Positions 42,020-49,647 of a DNA stretch of 64,000 nt are shown here, piece by piece. Location: assembly GCA_044226015.1 (NCBI GenBank), contig JBGAHS010000001.1:640001-704000 (forward strand), in the 5' to 3' direction. The notes under the pieces are model-generated. The model saw only the letters and a program-made list of their open reading frames with translations, ran no database searches and was not told the origin of the DNA. A program made the position numbers and the translations under genes. Positions within the stretch are counted from its first letter, which is position 1; each line of letters begins with the position of its first letter. Source of the stretch: Candidatus Obscuribacteraceae bacterium. Lineage in GTDB: Bacteria > Cyanobacteriota > Vampirovibrionia > Obscuribacterales > Obscuribacteraceae.

Positions 42020-43054
42020 ATGGACGACACCTGGCACCAGCTGATGAATAACCTGCAGCTTGCCGGGCATGTTGATGTCTGGGATACAGCGAAAGTCGCT
42101 ATCCAAATTGTCATCATTTTATACGCAATAGTATGGACATGGCGGCGCATTCGTGCGACGCAGGCCGAGCGTCTTGTTAAAGGCATTATGTTGCTGGTCA
42201 CCTTCTGGTTCGCATGCCAGTGGATGGGGCTGACCATCATCACGGCCATTTTGCGTGAGATGATACCAGTTCTTTTAATCGGAGTCGTAATCGTGTTTCA
42301 GCCCGAATTGCGACGGGGGCTTGGTTATCTCGGACGCACTCGCTTCAGGGTTGATTTCTCACTTTCCGACACTCAAAACGAAAAGACCAAAGAAGTTATC
42401 GAGCAGATTATCAAAGCCGTTCGCGAGCTTTCGCGCAACAAAATTGGTGCACTAATTGTGGTGGAACCTCCAGAGGGAGAGCGTGATTACATCAGCCCAG
42501 GCACCACTCTAAATGCCGAAGTTACATCGAGCCTTTTGCTCAGTATTTTTCACACCAGCTCTCCATTGCATGACGGTGCGGTAGTTATAAGACAAACAAA
42601 AATTATCGCTGCTGGTGTTATATTGCCAATGACAGATAGTTTGAAACTTAGTCAGAGGTACGGCACTCGTCATAGGGCCGCACTGGGACTTTCCGAAAAA
42701 TATGATGGACTTTGCATTGTGGCATCGGAAGAGACCGGCGCTATCTCAGCAGCTAACCGCGGCATGCTGGTTCGCTACAATTCAGCCGATGAGCTAGCAG
42801 ATGCGCTTAACTACATGTATCATCAAGTACCTGATGAAAAGCCAGGGGCAACGCAGACCCCGCTGCAATCTTTTCTGCAGTTATTCAATAGAACAAAAAC
42901 GGTTGTACCAAAACCAGCCCCAATTGTTGATCATCCCAGGCGGCGTGCGGGCGATTTCCCACGGGACGATGAACTTGATTCATCCTCGACGGAGCTTGAA
43001 CGCATCAAAACTAATGATGAGTATCTGTCTGAAGGGCACGCAGAAACAGTTTGA
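42020..43054 (+). CDS. cdaA: Diadenylate cyclase
   Basis: Three TM helices, FQPELRR, LHDGA, GTRHRAA, SEETG. Confidence 0.95.
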   Translation: MDDTWHQLMNNLQLAGHVDVWDTAKVAIQIVIILYAIVWTWRRIRATQAERLVKGIMLLVTFWFACQWMGLTIITAILREMIPVLLIGVVIVFQPELRRGLGYLGRTRFRVDFSLSDTQNEKTKEVIEQIIKAVRELSRNKIGALIVVEPPEGERDYISPGTTLNAEVTSSLLLSIFHTSSPLHDGAVVIRQTKIIAAGVILPMTDSLKLSQRYGTRHRAALGLSEKYDGLCIVASEETGAISAANRGMLVRYNSADELADALNYMYHQVPDEKPGATQTPLQSFLQLFNRTKTVVPKPAPIVDHPRRRAGDFPRDDELDSSSTELERIKTNDEYLSEGHAETV

Positions 43055-43057
43055 TTC

Positions 43058-45076
43058 ATGAGCGAACCTCTTGCCGATAATGAGCATCAGAACTCGACTC
43101 CATCTGCCAATCATGCTGACCTGGGCGTAGAGCTTGAAGCTGATTCTTGCCAGCAGGATCCTTCCGCCAAGCTCAACTCCGAGAGTCCGTCAGAATCTAG
43201 ATTTATTCAGCGGGAAATAAAGTCTTTTAGCGATGTCGTTGAGATGACATTGAAAATTCCGCGCGTCATTGCGCTGGTTTGGGAAGCGCACCCTCATCTT
43301 GCCTTGGTTTTTGTAGTTGACCAGATAATTTCTGGTTTGGCACCTCTGGCTTCTGTTTGGGTGCTTAAAACTCTGGTCGATACAGTTCCCTTGTTTGTAA
43401 AAATACATGGAGTTTCTAATGGTGTCGCATTTGGTGCAGTGCCAGGGAATTTAATCCTAGCTTTGCTTGTGCTCGCATTGTCCTGGCTTGCCCAAGAAGT
43501 TTCCAGACCCATCACGCATTATTGTCAGGAACAAATCAATGACGAACTGACAAAACGAATCAATTTCAAGATTATGGATAAGGTAAACAGTCTAATTGAT
43601 ATCAGTATTCTTGAAAATCCGAAATTTTACGACAAGCTTCAATACCTACAGAATGACTTAGCTTATAGACCTATTCAACTGCTTTCTGTGATGTCTCAAT
43701 TTATCAGAGTGATTATTATAGTTCTTACTTTGGGGACTCTTCTTGCAGCACTAAGCCCCTGGCTTGTTCTAGTGTTAGTCGTTTTTATCGCACCTAAGGT
43801 AGTTTGGTCTCTCAAGCACCTCTACGAATTCTGGGAAGTTTTGAACGGTGATGTTCCAGACCTTCGAAAAATGCGCTACTACATGAGTGTGGTCACCAAC
43901 AATCTTGATGGTAAAGAAGTGCGGCTGCTTGGGCTTGGCGAGTACTTCAAAAAGCTTTATGACGAGACCTTTAGCGAATTTCAGCACCGACGCAGTTCTA
44001 TGCGTAAGAGGCATCTTCGGCGAGATTTTTTTCTGGGCATCTGTGCCGCGTTCGGCTCGATGATTGGTTATGGTTATACCGTGTTTTGCGCGTTAGCTGG
44101 ACAGATTTCTGTTGGCAGCATGGCTATGTATTTGGGCACTATAGTCCAGATGGAGCAGCAGTTGATGGAGCTAGCCTTTGTTGTGGCTGAGCTTTACAGG
44201 CACACGCTATACGTGAGCGAGCTTTTCGATTTCCTTGATTTGGAACCTGTGATACCAGTTCCGGTGGCTGAGAATTGTGTTCCGGTACCTGAGAAAATCA
44301 CTAGCGGAATTGAATTCAAAGATGTCTACTTTAAATATCCGGGCTGCGAACGATATGTGCTTGAGGGCGTTTCATTCACTATTGCTCCCAGTCAGACTGT
44401 TGCGATAGTAGGCGAAAACGGCGCAGGCAAAACAACTATAGTCAAATTACTTTCACGATTATACGACCCGACTGCGGGCGCGATTCTTGTTGACGGCATC
44501 GATATTCGCAAGTTGAACCCAGCGGAATGGAGAAGCCGAATGGCTGTGGTATTCCAAGATTACTGCAAATATCAAATGACGCTGCAGCAAAACATAGGGG
44601 TAGGCCAGGTTGAAAAATCCAATGACTTACTTGCTATAGAACATTCCGCTGAGAGAGGAGGGGCTGCAAGTATTGCTAAAAAGTTTGAGCAAGGCTATAG
44701 CACTATGCTTGGAAAAGCCTTTGAGAAGGAGTCTGTGGGTGTTGAACTTTCTGGAGGCGAATGGCAACGCGTTGCTTTGTCTCGTGCGTTTATGCGAACG
44801 GCTGGACCCGATCGTGCTCATCTACTGATTCTTGATGAGCCGTCAGCATCGCTTGATGTTCAATCGGAAACGCAAACTTACTTGCGCTTCCATGAGCTGA
44901 TTGCAGATACTATGGGCATACTCATAACGCATCGTTTCTCTACAATAAAAATCGCCGACAAAATTATTGTTTTAGAGAATGGTAAGGTCATCGAAGAAGG
45001 TACGCACAATGAACTTACTGCCAGCGATACTCATTATGCAAGGCTCTTTGATATGCAAGCGAAGCACTATCGTTAG
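43058..45076 (+). CDS. ABC exporter, fused permease/ATPase
   Basis: TM domain; GENGAGKTT, LSGGEWQR, LILDEP, THR. Confidence 0.93.
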   Translation: MSEPLADNEHQNSTPSANHADLGVELEADSCQQDPSAKLNSESPSESRFIQREIKSFSDVVEMTLKIPRVIALVWEAHPHLALVFVVDQIISGLAPLASVWVLKTLVDTVPLFVKIHGVSNGVAFGAVPGNLILALLVLALSWLAQEVSRPITHYCQEQINDELTKRINFKIMDKVNSLIDISILENPKFYDKLQYLQNDLAYRPIQLLSVMSQFIRVIIIVLTLGTLLAALSPWLVLVLVVFIAPKVVWSLKHLYEFWEVLNGDVPDLRKMRYYMSVVTNNLDGKEVRLLGLGEYFKKLYDETFSEFQHRRSSMRKRHLRRDFFLGICAAFGSMIGYGYTVFCALAGQISVGSMAMYLGTIVQMEQQLMELAFVVAELYRHTLYVSELFDFLDLEPVIPVPVAENCVPVPEKITSGIEFKDVYFKYPGCERYVLEGVSFTIAPSQTVAIVGENGAGKTTIVKLLSRLYDPTAGAILVDGIDIRKLNPAEWRSRMAVVFQDYCKYQMTLQQNIGVGQVEKSNDLLAIEHSAERGGAASIAKKFEQGYSTMLGKAFEKESVGVELSGGEWQRVALSRAFMRTAGPDRAHLLILDEPSASLDVQSETQTYLRFHELIADTMGILITHRFSTIKIADKIIVLENGKVIEEGTHNELTASDTHYARLFDMQAKHYR

Positions 45077-45297: not shown

Positions 45298-45323
45298 GGA
45301 ACCAGTCTGGGGTCGTTCCGTCA
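45298..45323 (+). promoter_or_regulatory. ECF-type promoter P1 (GGAAC-N17-GTCA)
   Basis: Exact spacing; about 90 bp upstream of the 45412 ATG. Confidence 0.65.
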
Positions 45324-45411
45324 GACTTTCCATTCGTACAAAAATGCCGTTGCCTGAACTGAAAAAAAACTGGTTCGCACGTGCTCAGATCCCTGTTACG
45401 AAGGAGGTTTT

Positions 45412-45798
45412 ATGATCGAAGTCGAAAAAGAACGTGTTGAACAGCCAATCGTTGTGCAACCAGATAGCAGTTCCGCTGTGGGTGTCGTAGTCTTTTTAGT
45501 CCTTGCAATTGTCCTCTCGCTGGTGATTGCATTTTCGCTCGGTAGTAACAACTCGTCTACAGTTGTAGCGCCTACACCGACAACACAATACGTGCCAATT
45601 CAGGGACCAGCCGGACCACCAGGACCTCAGGGTCCAAGTGGACCTCAGGGCACGTCCACAACTTTTAGCGCACCGGCTCCAGTAAGTACACCGACACCAG
45701 CGCCGGTGGCTTCGCCTGCACCAAGCCCTGTTGATAATTCAGTAAACACGGATTCGAGTGGTTCAACTACAACCACAACCGAAACCACACAACAGTAA
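45412..45798 (+). CDS. Small single-TM protein with short collagen-like GXY run and Pro/Thr/Ser-rich tail
   Basis: AAGGAGG RBS; TM helix; GPAGPPGPQGPSGPQG. Confidence 0.85.
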   Translation: MIEVEKERVEQPIVVQPDSSSAVGVVVFLVLAIVLSLVIAFSLGSNNSSTVVAPTPTTQYVPIQGPAGPPGPQGPSGPQGTSTTFSAPAPVSTPTPAPVASPAPSPVDNSVNTDSSGSTTTTTETTQQ

Positions 45799-45808
45799 GT
45801 TTTCTTTG

Positions 45809-45834
45809 GGAACCAAAATTGATTTCCTCAGTCT
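45809..45834 (+). promoter_or_regulatory. ECF-type promoter P2 (GGAAC-N17-GTCT)
   Basis: gggaaccaaaattgatttcctcagtcttgt. Confidence 0.65.
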
Positions 45835-45839
45835 TGTTT

Positions 45840-45920
45840 CCCAGATGATGAAACCTGGCAGATCATCAAATGTTTTGGAAAGAAAGGAGCAGCCGTCGAA
45901 AGCGGCTGCTCTATATATTT
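45840..45920 (+). ncRNA. Candidate small RNA 1 (P2 to GC-rich hairpin)
   Basis: About 75 nt between P2 and the hairpin gagcagccg/cggctgctc (45887-45911); no RBS-led ORF. Confidence 0.4.
45887..45920. terminator. GC-rich hairpin terminator, possibly bidirectional
   Basis: 9-bp stem gagcagccg/cggctgctc; A-rich left flank, AT-rich right flank. Confidence 0.7.
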
Positions 45921-46009
45921 GAGTTTGTGAATCTTCTTGCAGACACATACTTGCTCACAAAGATCCAAGATACCGAAGAAGTAGTTTGTCTCTGTTGGGA
46001 ATTGTTCTG

Positions 46010-46035
46010 GGAACCAAATCCATCCGGTTCAGTCT
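46010..46035 (+). promoter_or_regulatory. ECF-type promoter P3 (GGAAC-N17-GTCT)
   Basis: gggaaccaaatccatccggttcagtcttgt; flanks shared with P2. Confidence 0.65.
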
Positions 46036-46040
46036 TGTCT

Positions 46041-46114
46041 TTCGGAAGAAGGACAAGTAAAAAGTAGTGAACTGAGAGAGCGCGTTGAATCATGGATTCA
46101 CGCGCTCTTTTGTT
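46041..46114 (+). ncRNA. Candidate small RNA 2 (P3 to terminator)
   Basis: About 70 nt; A/G-rich 5' part followed by a terminator. Confidence 0.45.
46077..46114 (+). terminator. Rho-independent terminator
   Basis: agagcgcg-t-tgaatc-atg-gattca-cgcgctct followed by tttgtt. Confidence 0.8.
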
Positions 46115-46194
46115 GCCTATTTGTTGCTCAAATGGCGAACCTTCATGCACAGTTATCTGTCGGCAACTATATGGTGGCAGCCCTATATTTTGAT

Positions 46195-46220
46195 GGAACA
46201 CACGAATTCATTGCCAGTCT
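46195..46220 (+). promoter_or_regulatory. ECF-type promoter P4 (GGAAC-N17-GTCT)
   Basis: ggaacacacgaattcattgccagtct, 28 bp upstream of the 46248 ATG. Confidence 0.65.
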
Positions 46221-46247: not shown

Positions 46248-46451
46248 ATGAAAGAAGTAATCCTAACGCTATTATTTATGGTTCTGCTTGCGGGCATTTA
46301 TTTGGGTGGACCGGTCTCACAATCGATGTTTCATTTTCTTGTGGTTATGACCTTGATTCAGATATTTACGGGAGGCTCAAATCTAAAGCCTGACTCAGGT
46401 TCTGTTCACACCGGTCACGTTCATCCTGCTCACGTTCACCCCAGCTCGTAA
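46248..46451 (+). CDS. Small two-TM protein with His-rich tail
   Basis: 67 aa; two hydrophobic helices; HTGHVHPAHVHP; lies directly behind P4. Confidence 0.65.
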   Translation: MKEVILTLLFMVLLAGIYLGGPVSQSMFHFLVVMTLIQIFTGGSNLKPDSGSVHTGHVHPAHVHPSS

Positions 46452-46472: not shown

Positions 46473-47642
46473 TCAGGATATTGAGTCCGAGTTTCTGCAC
46501 AATTGCAAAATTGTGTCTGCGATCGAGTAGACGGCGTCGACACGATCCAAATTATGATCCGAAGGCAGCGGTTTACTTAGTCGATCGCTGACCAATTCCA
46601 GATTCTCAACAATATGTACAATGTCCGATGGCTTGCGGATGCCTTGCGCGAGCCCAGTTTCGATAAGCATGGTGGCTGTGCCCGACTCTTGCGGCATTGG
46701 TTTGGTTACTAGATCAATAGCCATAGGCATTCGTCGCGCGATGGCTTCAAACGTTGTAAGCCCACCTGCTTTTGTGACCAAGAGATCGCAGGCTGTCATT
46801 ACTTCAGGCATAGAACTTACATACTTCAAAACCACTGTTTTGAAAGGGGATTTGAGCTTTTCCTGATCCATTTTTTGCTTCAATTTCATGTTCTTGCCGC
46901 AAATAAACAGAACCTGAAATTCTCTCTTGCATTCTGCCAACGATTTGTAAATCTTCAGCATATTGCCACCACCGGCAGAACCAGCACTTACAACAACCGT
47001 TGGTAGGTCGGGGTTCAACCGGTATTCACGCAAGAAATCGCGTTTCGATACAACTGGTTCTTTTATGAATGCTGGCTGAATAGGCATTCCAATTACTTGA
47101 ATTTTCTCTGGACTCAAGCCTAGTGAAACCAGCTTGTTGAATGTTATATCGTTCGGCGCTATTGTCAGATCGGCATCAGGACAGGCCCAGCCAGTCCACA
47201 AATTTGCGTTGGGATCGGTTAGAACCGTGAGAAGTTTAACCCGTCGACTCATGCCCAGTTCTTTCATGGCTCGAGCAAGAAAGTGATTAACCATAGGATG
47301 CACTGAAACAACAATGGTTGGTTCTATCGAACTCAACTTCTTTTTCATGTAAGAAGCTGCCAGTTTGTAAGCTATGGCGTTTTCATTTGGCTTTACAAGT
47401 TCGATCAGGGTGATGTAGTACTTCATCCATTCTTGCTTGTTTTTGAGCAGACCATTATAGACCTTTGCAAACAGTCGATTAATTGAGTTGCTCTCCTCGA
47501 CCAGATCTTCGAGGATGATATCTGGCACAAGTTCATTGCGCTCTTCGCAAATTTCGTGAATAGCGCGACGGAGTGCTTCTGCAGCACTGCGATGACCTGC
47601 ACCAGTATCTGAGAAAACTAAAAGTACTTTCGCTTTTTCCAT
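46473..47642 (-). CDS. GT28 glycosyltransferase, MGDG synthase/UgtP-like
   Basis: DTGAGHRSAAEA, SVHP, LTD, GMPI, CGKN, TKAGGLT..EA, QE.G. Confidence 0.9.
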   Translation of the reverse strand: MEKAKVLLVFSDTGAGHRSAAEALRRAIHEICEERNELVPDIILEDLVEESNSINRLFAKVYNGLLKNKQEWMKYYITLIELVKPNENAIAYKLAASYMKKKLSSIEPTIVVSVHPMVNHFLARAMKELGMSRRVKLLTVLTDPNANLWTGWACPDADLTIAPNDITFNKLVSLGLSPEKIQVIGMPIQPAFIKEPVVSKRDFLREYRLNPDLPTVVVSAGSAGGGNMLKIYKSLAECKREFQVLFICGKNMKLKQKMDQEKLKSPFKTVVLKYVSSMPEVMTACDLLVTKAGGLTTFEAIARRMPMAIDLVTKPMPQESGTATMLIETGLAQGIRKPSDIVHIVENLELVSDRLSKPLPSDHNLDRVDAVYSIADTILQLCRNSDSIS

Positions 47643-47737
47643 AAGCTATTCTTCTCACAATTCAATGCAAGAATATCATGGTCTGAAACTTCGCGGAACT
47701 TTTCTTTTTGCTCATGATCGCCACTGGAGGCTGCTCG

Positions 47738-48510: not shown

Positions 48511-48538
48511 GAAACTTTTCGTAGAAAGGTTCGCCTAA
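48511..48538 (+). promoter_or_regulatory. Degenerate ECF-type promoter (GAAAC-N17-GCCTAA)
   Basis: Same spacing as P1-P4 with two mismatches; upstream of the exported TPR gene. Confidence 0.35.
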
Positions 48539-48588: not shown

Positions 48589-49647
48589 ATGAAAGGGAAT
48601 CAATTCGCGAAGTACGCTCGCGTGTTCTGCCAGGCATTAGCCGTCGGCGTAGTGCTGCAAGCGTTATCTTTGCCAATCGCAAATGCACAGGCAATTGAAG
48701 TGCATAAGGCTTATATCAGCTCAGTGCCAAATCCTATTCGTTTTGCGGGTGACGAAGTTTTCGCCATTCGCACTCCTGCTGGTGAGTTTACCGCAGAAGA
48801 GCGCACCATGATTGTAGAGAGAAATCTCAACAACGCCCTGCTTGGTGCAAAGGATCGGTCGCCCAATGCCGTTTCCGTCGAAATTGTGAATAGCTTGCCA
48901 GTAATAAGATTGGATGGCAAGCATGTTGTCACTATTGATACAGTTCTGGCTTCGGTAAACAATACAACTTGCGACAACCTTGCGTTTAAGTGGGCAGACA
49001 ATCTTCGTCACGTGCTTGCTGACACAGCTAAGGTAGACAATTATATTGCCCAAATGGATGGTGACTTCCTGGCAGCACCGTATACGCCACCAGCGTGGCG
49101 CGAACAATGGCAGGCTGCTCGATTGAATCATGCAGCCAATGCTTATCGTCGCGATATGCCACGGAATGGTTTCGTTTCCCAACTGGCGCTGAAAGACGAA
49201 GGCTTCCGTCTATTGATGAAGCGCGACCCTATCGGAGCCGAAGCTTTCTTCAAGACAGCGCTAAGCACAAACGGTGACAACGAACGTGCACGTTATGGAT
49301 TGGGTCTTGCTTTATTGAAGCAAGGAAAACCCCAGACAGCTTTGATGCATTTGCAAATGGCCAGTTACCTTGAGCCAGATGATGCGCAAGTTCACATGGC
49401 CATGGGTGAAGCTTTTGAAGCCCTTGGTCATGATCAAGATGCCATTGTTGCATATAAAAAAGCAAGCGAATTGAGCCCAGAAAATCCTGAGCCGGCTTTG
49501 TACGTAGCCGATATGAGAGAAGAACGTGATCAGATCAAGCGATCATCAATTGAGCTTTCCCGTGCACAACTTGAGTGCGCAGACAGCCATTACCTGAAAA
49601 TTCGCAAGAAAGACCAGGTAGCATGGCGCTTGTCTAAACCATATTAA
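48589..49647 (+). CDS. Exported TPR-repeat protein
   Basis: GGAGG RBS; signal peptide ending ANA-Q; C-terminal TPRs. Confidence 0.85.
   Translation: MKGNQFAKYARVFCQALAVGVVLQALSLPIANAQAIEVHKAYISSVPNPIRFAGDEVFAIRTPAGEFTAEERTMIVERNLNNALLGAKDRSPNAVSVEIVNSLPVIRLDGKHVVTIDTVLASVNNTTCDNLAFKWADNLRHVLADTAKVDNYIAQMDGDFLAAPYTPPAWREQWQAARLNHAANAYRRDMPRNGFVSQLALKDEGFRLLMKRDPIGAEAFFKTALSTNGDNERARYGLGLALLKQGKPQTALMHLQMASYLEPDDAQVHMAMGEAFEALGHDQDAIVAYKKASELSPENPEPALYVADMREERDQIKRSSIELSRAQLECADSHYLKIRKKDQVAWRLSKPY

What the first reader, a model, noticed from the sequence alone, without database searches (positions are those of the whole stretch)
45298..46220. Four exact ECF-sigma promoters (GGAAC-N17-GTC) in 930 bp: a compact stress-regulon island
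Seen: GGAAC at 45298, 45809, 46010 and 46195, each followed after exactly 17 nt by GTC[AT], all on the + strand and all intergenic. P2 and P3 also share flanks (tgggaaccaaa...tcagtcttgt). Established: this is the -35/-10 geometry of RpoE/AlgU-type ECF promoters. Inference: one ECF sigma, not encoded in this window, drives four separate small units here: a collagen-like membrane protein, two non-coding transcripts and a His-tailed membrane peptide. A degenerate fifth copy at 48511 precedes an exported TPR gene.
Basis: partly seen in the sequence, partly recalled or inferred. Interest (0 to 1): 0.8.

Follow-up and report, generated by a model that had tools for sequence, protein, structure and literature searches.

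The report
Stress-sigma promoter cluster, two candidate RNAs
Four copies of a DNA signal that marks about 75 places in the genome of a non-photosynthetic relative of cyanobacteria sit within 930 bases; they are likely promoters for a SigG-type stress sigma factor, a known kind of switch, and two of them would start short RNAs found only in this genome so far.

Summary
Confirmed: four exact GGAAC-N17-GTC sites (4 vs 1.1 by chance), the only four-in-1-kb cluster in this Obscuribacterales genome. They belong to a genome-wide motif: 90 intergenic copies against 9-26 at other spacings. The likely reader is the SigG/ECF25 family, published motif GGAAC/GTC. The motif precedes sigG in 24 of 25 other-class cyanobacterial loci. 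It also lies inside sigG, before the anti-sigma gene, in 80 of 80 relatives, with codons frozen. It precedes a group-2 sigma gene in 18 of 19 relatives. The genome has one SigG with an anti-sigma and two paralogues without one. Targets mix envelope and general-stress genes. Locally, P1 and P4 precede two small membrane-protein genes. P2 and P3 precede 78- and 70-nt hairpin-ended units, possibly duplicated small RNAs, but these are unconserved in 106 genomes and unproven. The predicted start is +10 after GTC, not +6-8. No transcription data. This scan already reported the motif and regulon in two other genomes. Verdict: real promoters, new member of a known kind.

The parts
45298..45322 (+). 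P1: GGAAC-N17-GTC, likely SigG-family promoter; predicted start A45332
   Evidence: C|A at +9/+10; flank score at the median of intergenic sites
45412..45798 (+). 128-aa single-pass membrane protein with Pro/Thr/Ser-rich tail and a short Gly-Pro-X run; GAAGGAGG ribosome site upstream
   Evidence: hydrophobic stretch at residues 23-41; no homologue found; collagen hit below cut-off
45809..45833 (+). P2: GGAAC-N17-GTC in the 3' flank of the 128-aa gene; predicted start A45843
45843..45920 (+). Candidate 78-nt RNA: 5' hairpin, purine-rich linker, terminator-like hairpin 45886-45912 that also reads as a terminator on the minus strand and would also end the P1 mRNA
   Evidence: fold z -3.7 for 45838-45920; terminator scan hits on both strands; structure; no credible Rfam hit; not conserved
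46010..46034 (+). P3: GGAAC-N17-GTC, 201 nt after P2 and its closest look-alike; predicted start G46044
46044..46113 (+). Candidate 70-nt RNA: 30-nt single-stranded purine-rich 5' part, strong hairpin about 46074-46111 ending in TTTTGTT
   Evidence: fold z -6.0 for 46039-46122; strongest downstream hairpin of 91 sites; not listed by the terminator pattern scan; not conserved
46195..46219 (+). P4: GGAAC-N17-GTC, weakest of the four; predicted start A46229, 19-nt leader
46248..46451 (+). 67-aa hydrophobic peptide with His-Pro tail; likely a real gene
   Evidence: one homologue, P0001, 54 aa, 71% identity, E 3.7e-11, lacking the His tail; none in 106 genomes of the order
48511..48535 (+). Fifth, two-mismatch site (GAAAC-N17-GCC) 53 nt before the exported TPR gene; plausible weak promoter
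   Evidence: GGAAAC-N16-CG[CT]C recurs before the homologue in L306 and L307, not in L305 or L308; exact motif before six further homologue loci; GAAAC..GCC not enriched genome-wide
48589..49647 (+). 352-aa TPR protein with a signal-peptide-like N-terminus; its paralogue in the C1 stress island has an exact promoter

Best explanation
The four sites are likely promoters read by RNA polymerase carrying a SigG (ECF25)-family sigma factor, and are 4 of about 75 members of a genome-wide envelope and general-stress regulon. GGAAC is the -35 element and (C/A)GTC the -10, with the start predicted 10 nt after GTC. Inferred circuit: canonical SigG (C7:19045-19674) is held by a membrane zinc-finger anti-sigma and, once freed, re-makes it from a promoter inside its own gene (negative feedback). 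Two paralogues without an anti-sigma (C11:1011766, C5:136041) would widen the response and may be controlled by proteolysis. A group-2 sigma gene forms a second tier. Here, P1 and P4 would induce two small membrane proteins, and P2 and P3 would each make a short terminated RNA of no known function, likely from a local duplication.
For: Shown: intergenic N17 90 vs 9-26 at 15 other spacers, no excess in coding DNA. No single change in the -35 is enriched; only ATC and GCC at -10 are mildly so. Purine at +10 in 62 of 87 intergenic vs 74 of 165 coding sites; all four local sites have C then purine at +9/+10. N17 exceeds N20 in 21 of 25 family genomes, 3550 vs 2663. Link to SigG: the motif lies just upstream of the sigG orthologue in 24 of 25 same-phylum, other-class loci and within 300 nt upstream in 24 of 80 Obscuribacterales loci vs 4 for ten other spacers. 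It lies inside sigG in 80 of 80 loci, where codons P148 CCG, E149 GAA and V156 GTC are invariant in 81 of 81 sequences while other four-fold sites have a median of about 0.42. It sits a median 158 nt before a zf-HC2 ORF found in 73 of 80 loci. It precedes a group-2 sigma orthologue in 18 of 19 relatives and 0 of 10 lower-scoring sigma loci. Published: ECF25s1/s2 predicted motif is GGAAC/GTC, similar to that of N. punctiforme SigG (PMC7826278 supplement passages; also PMC8155712 passage). Targets by Pfam: OmpH, peptidase M48, two PBPs, AsmA, MlaE, lytic transglycosylase, aquaporin, DUF2383, CBS, hemerythrin, GH65/HAD, nitroreductase.
Against: No transcription or binding data. The 1.4-kb cluster is not conserved: only short, weak matches in 40 and 106 genomes, and 0 of 9 closest loci of the neighbouring glycosyltransferase carry the motif. 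About 14 of 90 intergenic sites are expected by chance. G000's own sigG lacks an upstream site. Which paralogue reads these sites is untested. Relatives are kin, not independent. Ku, LigD, ferritin, trehalose synthase, a second CBS gene and a debranching enzyme in the C1 island have no motif within 300 nt, and YtxH only a GCC variant. P3's hairpin is not picked up by the terminator scan. The gene caller was a crude longest-ORF script.
Confidence: 0.82

Rival explanations
1. P2 and P3 are true promoters, and their products are functional regulatory small RNAs, the repressive arm of the SigG response as MicA, RybB and MicL are for E. coli sigma-E. This is a sub-case of the best explanation.
For: Their downstream hairpins rank 1 and 4 of 91 sites; fold z -6.0 and -3.7; no credible ORF in the units; shared 5' start RGAWGAWG; P2 overlaps a 3' flank like a 3'-end-derived sRNA; a weak Hfq-like match exists in the genome, below cut-off.
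Against: No conservation in 106 genomes of the order; no credible Rfam hit; best predicted pairing with start-codon regions is no better than shuffles (-23.3 vs -22.4 to -27.7; -15.4 vs -15.5 to -19.1); no CsrA found in this 92%-complete genome, so a GGA-sponge role lacks a partner.
Confidence: 0.3
2. P2 and P3 are relics: promoter-plus-leader stubs of regulon genes that were deleted, left next to ordinary terminators. Any short RNA is a by-product.
For: Both units contain ribosome-site-like AAGGA(G) after the predicted start but no good reading frame; the P2 hairpin would also end the 128-aa gene's mRNA and reads as a terminator on both strands; the stretch is lineage-specific and its neighbours are not syntenic.
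Against: Both promoters are perfect matches with good flanks (64th percentile), which decay would erode; P3's hairpin has no upstream gene to terminate.
Confidence: 0.3
3. The motif is read by one of the other ECF sigmas in the genome (C1:118313, C10:281187, C2:65747), not by the SigG family.
For: Many ECF groups use a GGAAC -35, e.g. EcfG GGAAC-N17-20-GTT (PMC6599016 passages); G000's sigG has no upstream copy.
Against: None of those three has GGAAC-N17-GTC upstream; C1:118313 has GAAC..CGTT instead. The internal site is fixed in canonical sigG. The N17 excess is larger in genomes with two or more SigG copies (median 51, n=16) than with one or none (median 2, n=9) (kin not independent, small or incomplete genomes among the latter).
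Confidence: 0.07
4. The local cluster is a chance pile-up of a short 8-base pattern.
For: About 180 matches per spacer arise genome-wide by chance; P4 overlaps short ORFs and scores weakest.
Against: 4 vs 1.11 expected; 0 of 2000 random placements; all four share the C|purine start signature.
Confidence: 0.03

Closest known systems
SigG-SapG of Nostoc punctiforme, group ECF25 (PMC7826278 supplement passages; PMC13712970 passages; Bell et al. 2017 itself not held)
   Same: Same -35 GGAAC and -10 GTC; 51-56% identity of the C7 sigma to the other-class cyanobacterial orthologues held as loci; single-membrane-pass anti-sigma encoded next to it (zf-HC2, hydrophobic stretch 243-261); envelope-related targets.
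   Different: Non-photosynthetic host; two extra paralogues without anti-sigma that end in CA or AA (10 of 10 such loci); a promoter inside sigG that the 14 other-class cyanobacterial genes printed lack; many general-stress targets; a group-2 sigma downstream; upstream self-promoter kept in only 24 of 80 relatives and not in G000.
E. coli sigma-E system: rseAP3 and the sRNAs MicA, RybB, MicL (PMC8595263 passages; PMC4102768 search listing and start of abstract)
   Same: A sigma-dependent promoter inside the sigma gene drives the anti-sigma; promoters that yield short RNAs; OmpH-type envelope targets. AlgU and RpoE are the closest solved structures.
   Different: Different -10 (TCAAA, recalled); the C7 sigma scores far below the RpoE equivalog cut-off (144 vs 236 bits); the E. 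coli sRNAs are conserved and have targets, these candidates have neither.
EcfG (ECF15) general stress response of alphaproteobacteria (PMC6599016 passages)
   Same: GGAAC -35; regulon rich in small secreted proteins, Ku, trehalose and glycogen enzymes, like the C1 island.
   Different: -10 is GTT there; GGAAC-N17-GTT is not enriched here (19 vs 14-33); PhyR/NepR control was not looked for.

Membership tests
SigG / ECF25 regulon | Target promoter GGAAC (-35) and GTC (-10) | tested here: met
   motif as given in PMC7826278 supplement
SigG / ECF25 regulon | Genome encodes a SigG orthologue | tested here: met
SigG / ECF25 regulon | Membrane anti-sigma factor encoded at +1 | tested here: met
   zf-HC2 E 1.3e-21 and one hydrophobic stretch; 73 of 80 relatives. 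Not met for the two paralogues
SigG / ECF25 regulon | Autoregulation through the motif at the sigma locus | tested here: inconclusive
   Upstream site absent in G000, present in 24 of 80 relatives; internal site in 80 of 80 and in G000
SigG / ECF25 regulon | Score against the ECF25 group HMM | not testable with these tools
   ECF Hub models not available
SigG / ECF25 regulon | Sigma-dependent transcription from these sites | not testable with these tools
   needs reporters or dRNA-seq
RpoE/AlgU (ECF02) | RpoE equivalog score | tested here: not met
   TIGR02939 144.3 bits vs cut-off 236.15
EcfG (ECF15) general stress response | -10 element GTT | tested here: not met
   GGAAC-N17-GTT not enriched
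EcfG (ECF15) general stress response | PhyR-NepR partner switch | not tested
   not searched
Sigma-E-type base-pairing sRNA (P2, P3 units) | Own promoter and intrinsic terminator | tested here: met
   by sequence only:
Sigma-E-type base-pairing sRNA (P2, P3 units) | Conserved seed with targets better than chance | tested here: not met
Csr/Rsm sponge RNA | CsrA/RsmA protein in the genome | tested here: not met
   PF02599 not found in G000, 92% complete

The most novel reading that the evidence does not exclude
Obscuribacteraceae have turned cyanobacterial SigG into a tiered general-stress master switch: a self-limiting SigG with a promoter for its anti-sigma hidden in its own codons, anti-sigma-free paralogues timed by C-terminal degradation tags, a dedicated group-2 sigma as second tier, and a small-RNA arm, of which the tandem P2 and P3 units would be the first SigG-dependent small RNAs.
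Probability: 0.25. Interest if true: 0.65.

Novelty: new member of a known kind. Interest (0 to 1): 0.4.

Why it matters
It gives a strict, testable promoter signature and a list of about 75 likely stress-induced units in an uncultured lineage with almost no regulatory data. My searches found no paper holding 'Vampirovibrionia', 'sigma factor' and 'promoter' together, and none of the eight listed for Melainabacteria or Obscuribacterales with sigma factor or stress is about regulation by its title. The shared motif suggests the SigG switch predates the split from photosynthetic cyanobacteria (inference). The internal promoter and the SigG-to-group-2-sigma link are conserved and can be tested by heterologous reporters. 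The local cluster itself matters mainly as two candidate small RNAs.

Tried and rejected
Rfam: two weak chance-level hits only. DNA search of 40 relatives and 106 genomes of the order: collagen-like repeats and short matches only. Synteny through the neighbouring glycosyltransferase: motif in 1 of 29 relative loci, none among the 9 closest. 128-aa protein: no homologue among proteins of 70-224 aa, no Atlas hit, not in the cluster collection. 67-aa peptide in metagenomes: 15 loci; the 6 I translated are an unrelated longer protein sharing GGPVSQSM (YqgE/AlgH-like, name recalled), the other 9 were not read. Sequencing runs: no RNA holder listed. Target scan: no better than 4 shuffles each. CsrA sponge: no CsrA found. 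The reversed-pattern control differs in composition and was replaced by an N20 spacer control. The 'anti-sigma next' column is unreliable (it misses ORFs with earlier starts) and was not used. I first rejected the fifth site on genome-wide counts, then revised this to plausible on conservation. GGAAC-N17-ATC at 47695 before the nitrilase: the predicted start falls in the ribosome site, so it was not accepted. Bell et al. 2017 could not be read; its content is taken second-hand.

Full report
Observation. The window lies on contig C11 of an 8.19-Mb, 92%-complete genome. Most of the 80 closest relatives of its main ECF sigma are titled Obscuribacterales or Melainabacteria, so the host is a non-photosynthetic member of the Cyanobacteriota. 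The cluster sits between an ABC exporter gene (ends 45076) and a convergent MGDG-synthase-like glycosyltransferase (46473-47642, minus).

The motif is a genome-wide promoter signal. With a crude longest-ORF gene caller (5964 genes, 89% coding), intergenic matches number 90 at a 17-nt spacer, 26 at 18 nt and 9-21 at the other 14 spacers; coding DNA shows no peak (166 vs 142-207). About 75 sites are therefore real. 65 of 90 have a same-strand gene starting within 250 nt, against 2 of 11, 9 of 18 and 11 of 21 at control spacers. The motif is strict: none of 15 single changes in GGAAC is clearly enriched, and at the -10 only ATC (35 vs 20) and GCC (27 vs 15.5) rise slightly, uncorrected. The base before GTC is C or A in 72 of 87 other sites. 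A purine 10 nt after the C occurs in 62 of 87 intergenic and 74 of 165 coding sites, and all four local sites read C then purine at +9/+10. This predicts starts at 45332, 45843, 46044 and 46229 (inference). In relatives, N17 exceeds N20 in 21 of 25 genomes of the family (3550 vs 2663) but barely in 13 genomes of other orders (262 vs 236).

Which sigma. The genome has 17 sigma-70 region-2 matches: nine long group 1/2 proteins, two group-3-like and six ECF-like by length and sequence. One ECF (C7:19045-19674) is 51-56% identical to one strong match per genome in the other-class Cyanobacteriota loci. It is followed by a zf-HC2 protein with one membrane stretch, the SigG-SapG layout. Supplement passages of PMC7826278 place N. 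punctiforme SigG in ECF25 and give GGAAC/GTC as the predicted motif; a passage of PMC8155712 says the same for Synechocystis SigG. The primary paper (Bell et al. 2017) was not held, so its figures and supplements may bear on spacing and start site. My own tests agree. GGAAC-N17/18-GTC lies just upstream of the orthologue in 24 of 25 other-class loci and 0 of 4 small-genome same-class loci, and within 300 nt upstream in 24 of 80 Obscuribacterales loci, against 4 for ten other spacers. G000's own copy has no upstream site.

A hidden copy inside sigG. All 80 Obscuribacterales loci and G000 carry an exact motif about 440 nt into sigG. The codons spelling it are invariant (P148 CCG, E149 GAA, V156 GTC in 81 of 81; Q150 CAG in 80 of 80), while the other 39 conserved four-fold sites have a top-codon share of 0.31-0.87, median about 0.42. 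It lies a median 158 nt before the anti-sigma ORF, found in 73 of 80 loci. Many loci are close kin, but the contrast with neighbouring codons in the same sequences shows selection on the DNA. This is the layout of E. coli rseAP3, a sigma-E promoter inside rpoE (PMC8595263 passages), and it is the strongest link between motif and SigG.

Paralogues and second tier. Two further SigG-like genes (C11:1011766, C5:136041; 83% identical to each other, 52-55% to C7) have no anti-sigma neighbour and no internal site. Ten such loci, G000's and nine from relatives, all end in CA or AA and lack the internal site, while 19 of 20 canonical loci have it. Family genomes with two or more SigG matches show a median N17 excess of 51 (n=16) vs 2 (n=9) (kin, and several of the nine are small or incomplete). 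Three of nine group 1/2 sigma genes have the exact motif upstream. For one of them (C11:1374560) the orthologue has it in 18 of 19 relatives, and 0 of 10 lower-scoring sigma loci do.

Targets. First genes include OmpH, peptidase M48, two penicillin-binding proteins, AsmA, MlaE, a lytic transglycosylase, HlyD, aquaporin, a holin-like protein, patatins, DUF2383, CBS, hemerythrin, nitroreductase and a GH65/HAD enzyme. Many others are short proteins with signal-peptide-like starts and no Pfam family (40 regions fetched outside the C1 island, not all 66 genes scanned). Twenty of 87 sites lie in C1:1010-1090 kb, which also holds Ku, LigD, ferritin, YtxH and trehalose synthase. Of those only Ku is linked, as the next gene behind a motif-led ORF; the others have no exact motif within 300 nt. 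The set resembles the EcfG general-stress regulon (PMC6599016 passages) but uses GTC, not GTT.

The local units. P1 leads to a 128-aa one-helix membrane protein with a Pro/Thr-rich tail and no homologue found. P4 leads to a 67-aa hydrophobic peptide with one 54-aa homologue at 71% identity lacking the His tail. P2 and P3 are 201 nt apart, the most alike pair among 4005, and are followed by the 4th and 1st strongest hairpins of 91 sites (z -3.7 and -6.0). They would give RNAs of 78 and 70 nt. Against a regulatory role: no Rfam family, no conservation in 106 genomes, no target pairing above shuffles, no CsrA, only a below-cut-off Hfq match. The P2 hairpin would also end the P1 mRNA and reads as a terminator on both strands, and the scan did not list P3's hairpin. 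Functional sRNA and gene-loss relic are about equally likely. The fifth site has two mismatches and that combination is not enriched. However, GGAAAC-N16-CG[CT]C recurs before 2 of the 4 closest homologues of the TPR gene, and six further homologue loci (two identical) carry the exact motif. It is plausibly a weak member.

Comparison and verdict. The system works like, and by the testable features belongs to, the SigG/ECF25 family. Two earlier notes of this scan (e1-9827104, e1-7333174) describe the same motif and regulon in other genomes; they are unchecked AI notes and not independent support. My searches listed no paper on this regulon in Vampirovibrionia or on SigG-dependent sRNAs, judged from listings only. 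Shown: motif, enrichment, conservation, gene layout. Inferred: promoter activity, cognate sigma, feedback, cascade, RNA products. New member of a known kind; interest 0.4.

Noticed in passing
G000 C7:19045-19674 (L048); L058-L137: Exact GGAAC-N17-GTC inside the sigG coding sequence with invariant synonymous codons, about 158 nt before the anti-sigma gene; likely an internal feedback promoter like E. coli rseAP3.
   Followed up: yes
G000 C11:1374560-1375693 (L208); L209-L227: A group-2 sigma gene keeps the motif upstream in 18 of 19 relatives, with an unusually conserved start of the spacer (ATTTTAAT); two more group-2 sigma genes (C9:101651, C1:1069029) also have the motif upstream.
   Followed up: partly
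G000 C11:1011766 and C5:136041 (L049, L050); L259-L267, L269: SigG paralogues without anti-sigma, all ending in CA or AA.
   Followed up: partly
G000 C1:1010000-1090000 (L054-L057): 80-kb stress island with 20 motif sites, several divergent pairs, two group-2 sigma genes, Ku, LigD, ferritin, YtxH, trehalose enzymes and a multi-HAMP hybrid kinase.
   Followed up: partly
G000 C10:4956-4980, minus strand: Another motif followed after about 80 nt by a strong hairpin and T-run: a third candidate short RNA of about 110 nt.
   Followed up: no
L058-L137, upstream of sigG: A conserved GTG(T/A/C)TA(C/A/G)(C/G)ATAT box lies 40-110 nt upstream of sigG in many loci and in G000; it may be a housekeeping-sigma extended -10.
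   Followed up: no
window 47695-47719, +: GGAAC-N17-ATC one-mismatch site before the nitrilase-family gene; geometry fits poorly with its ribosome site.
   Followed up: partly
G000 whole genome: Nine group 1/2 sigma factors; GGAAAC-N18/19-CGCC is also somewhat raised in intergenic DNA (7 and 5 vs 0-2), unexplained.
   Followed up: no
window 43058-45076, +: ABC exporter gene starts 3 nt after the diadenylate cyclase gene cdaA (42020-43054), behind lysA.
   Followed up: no
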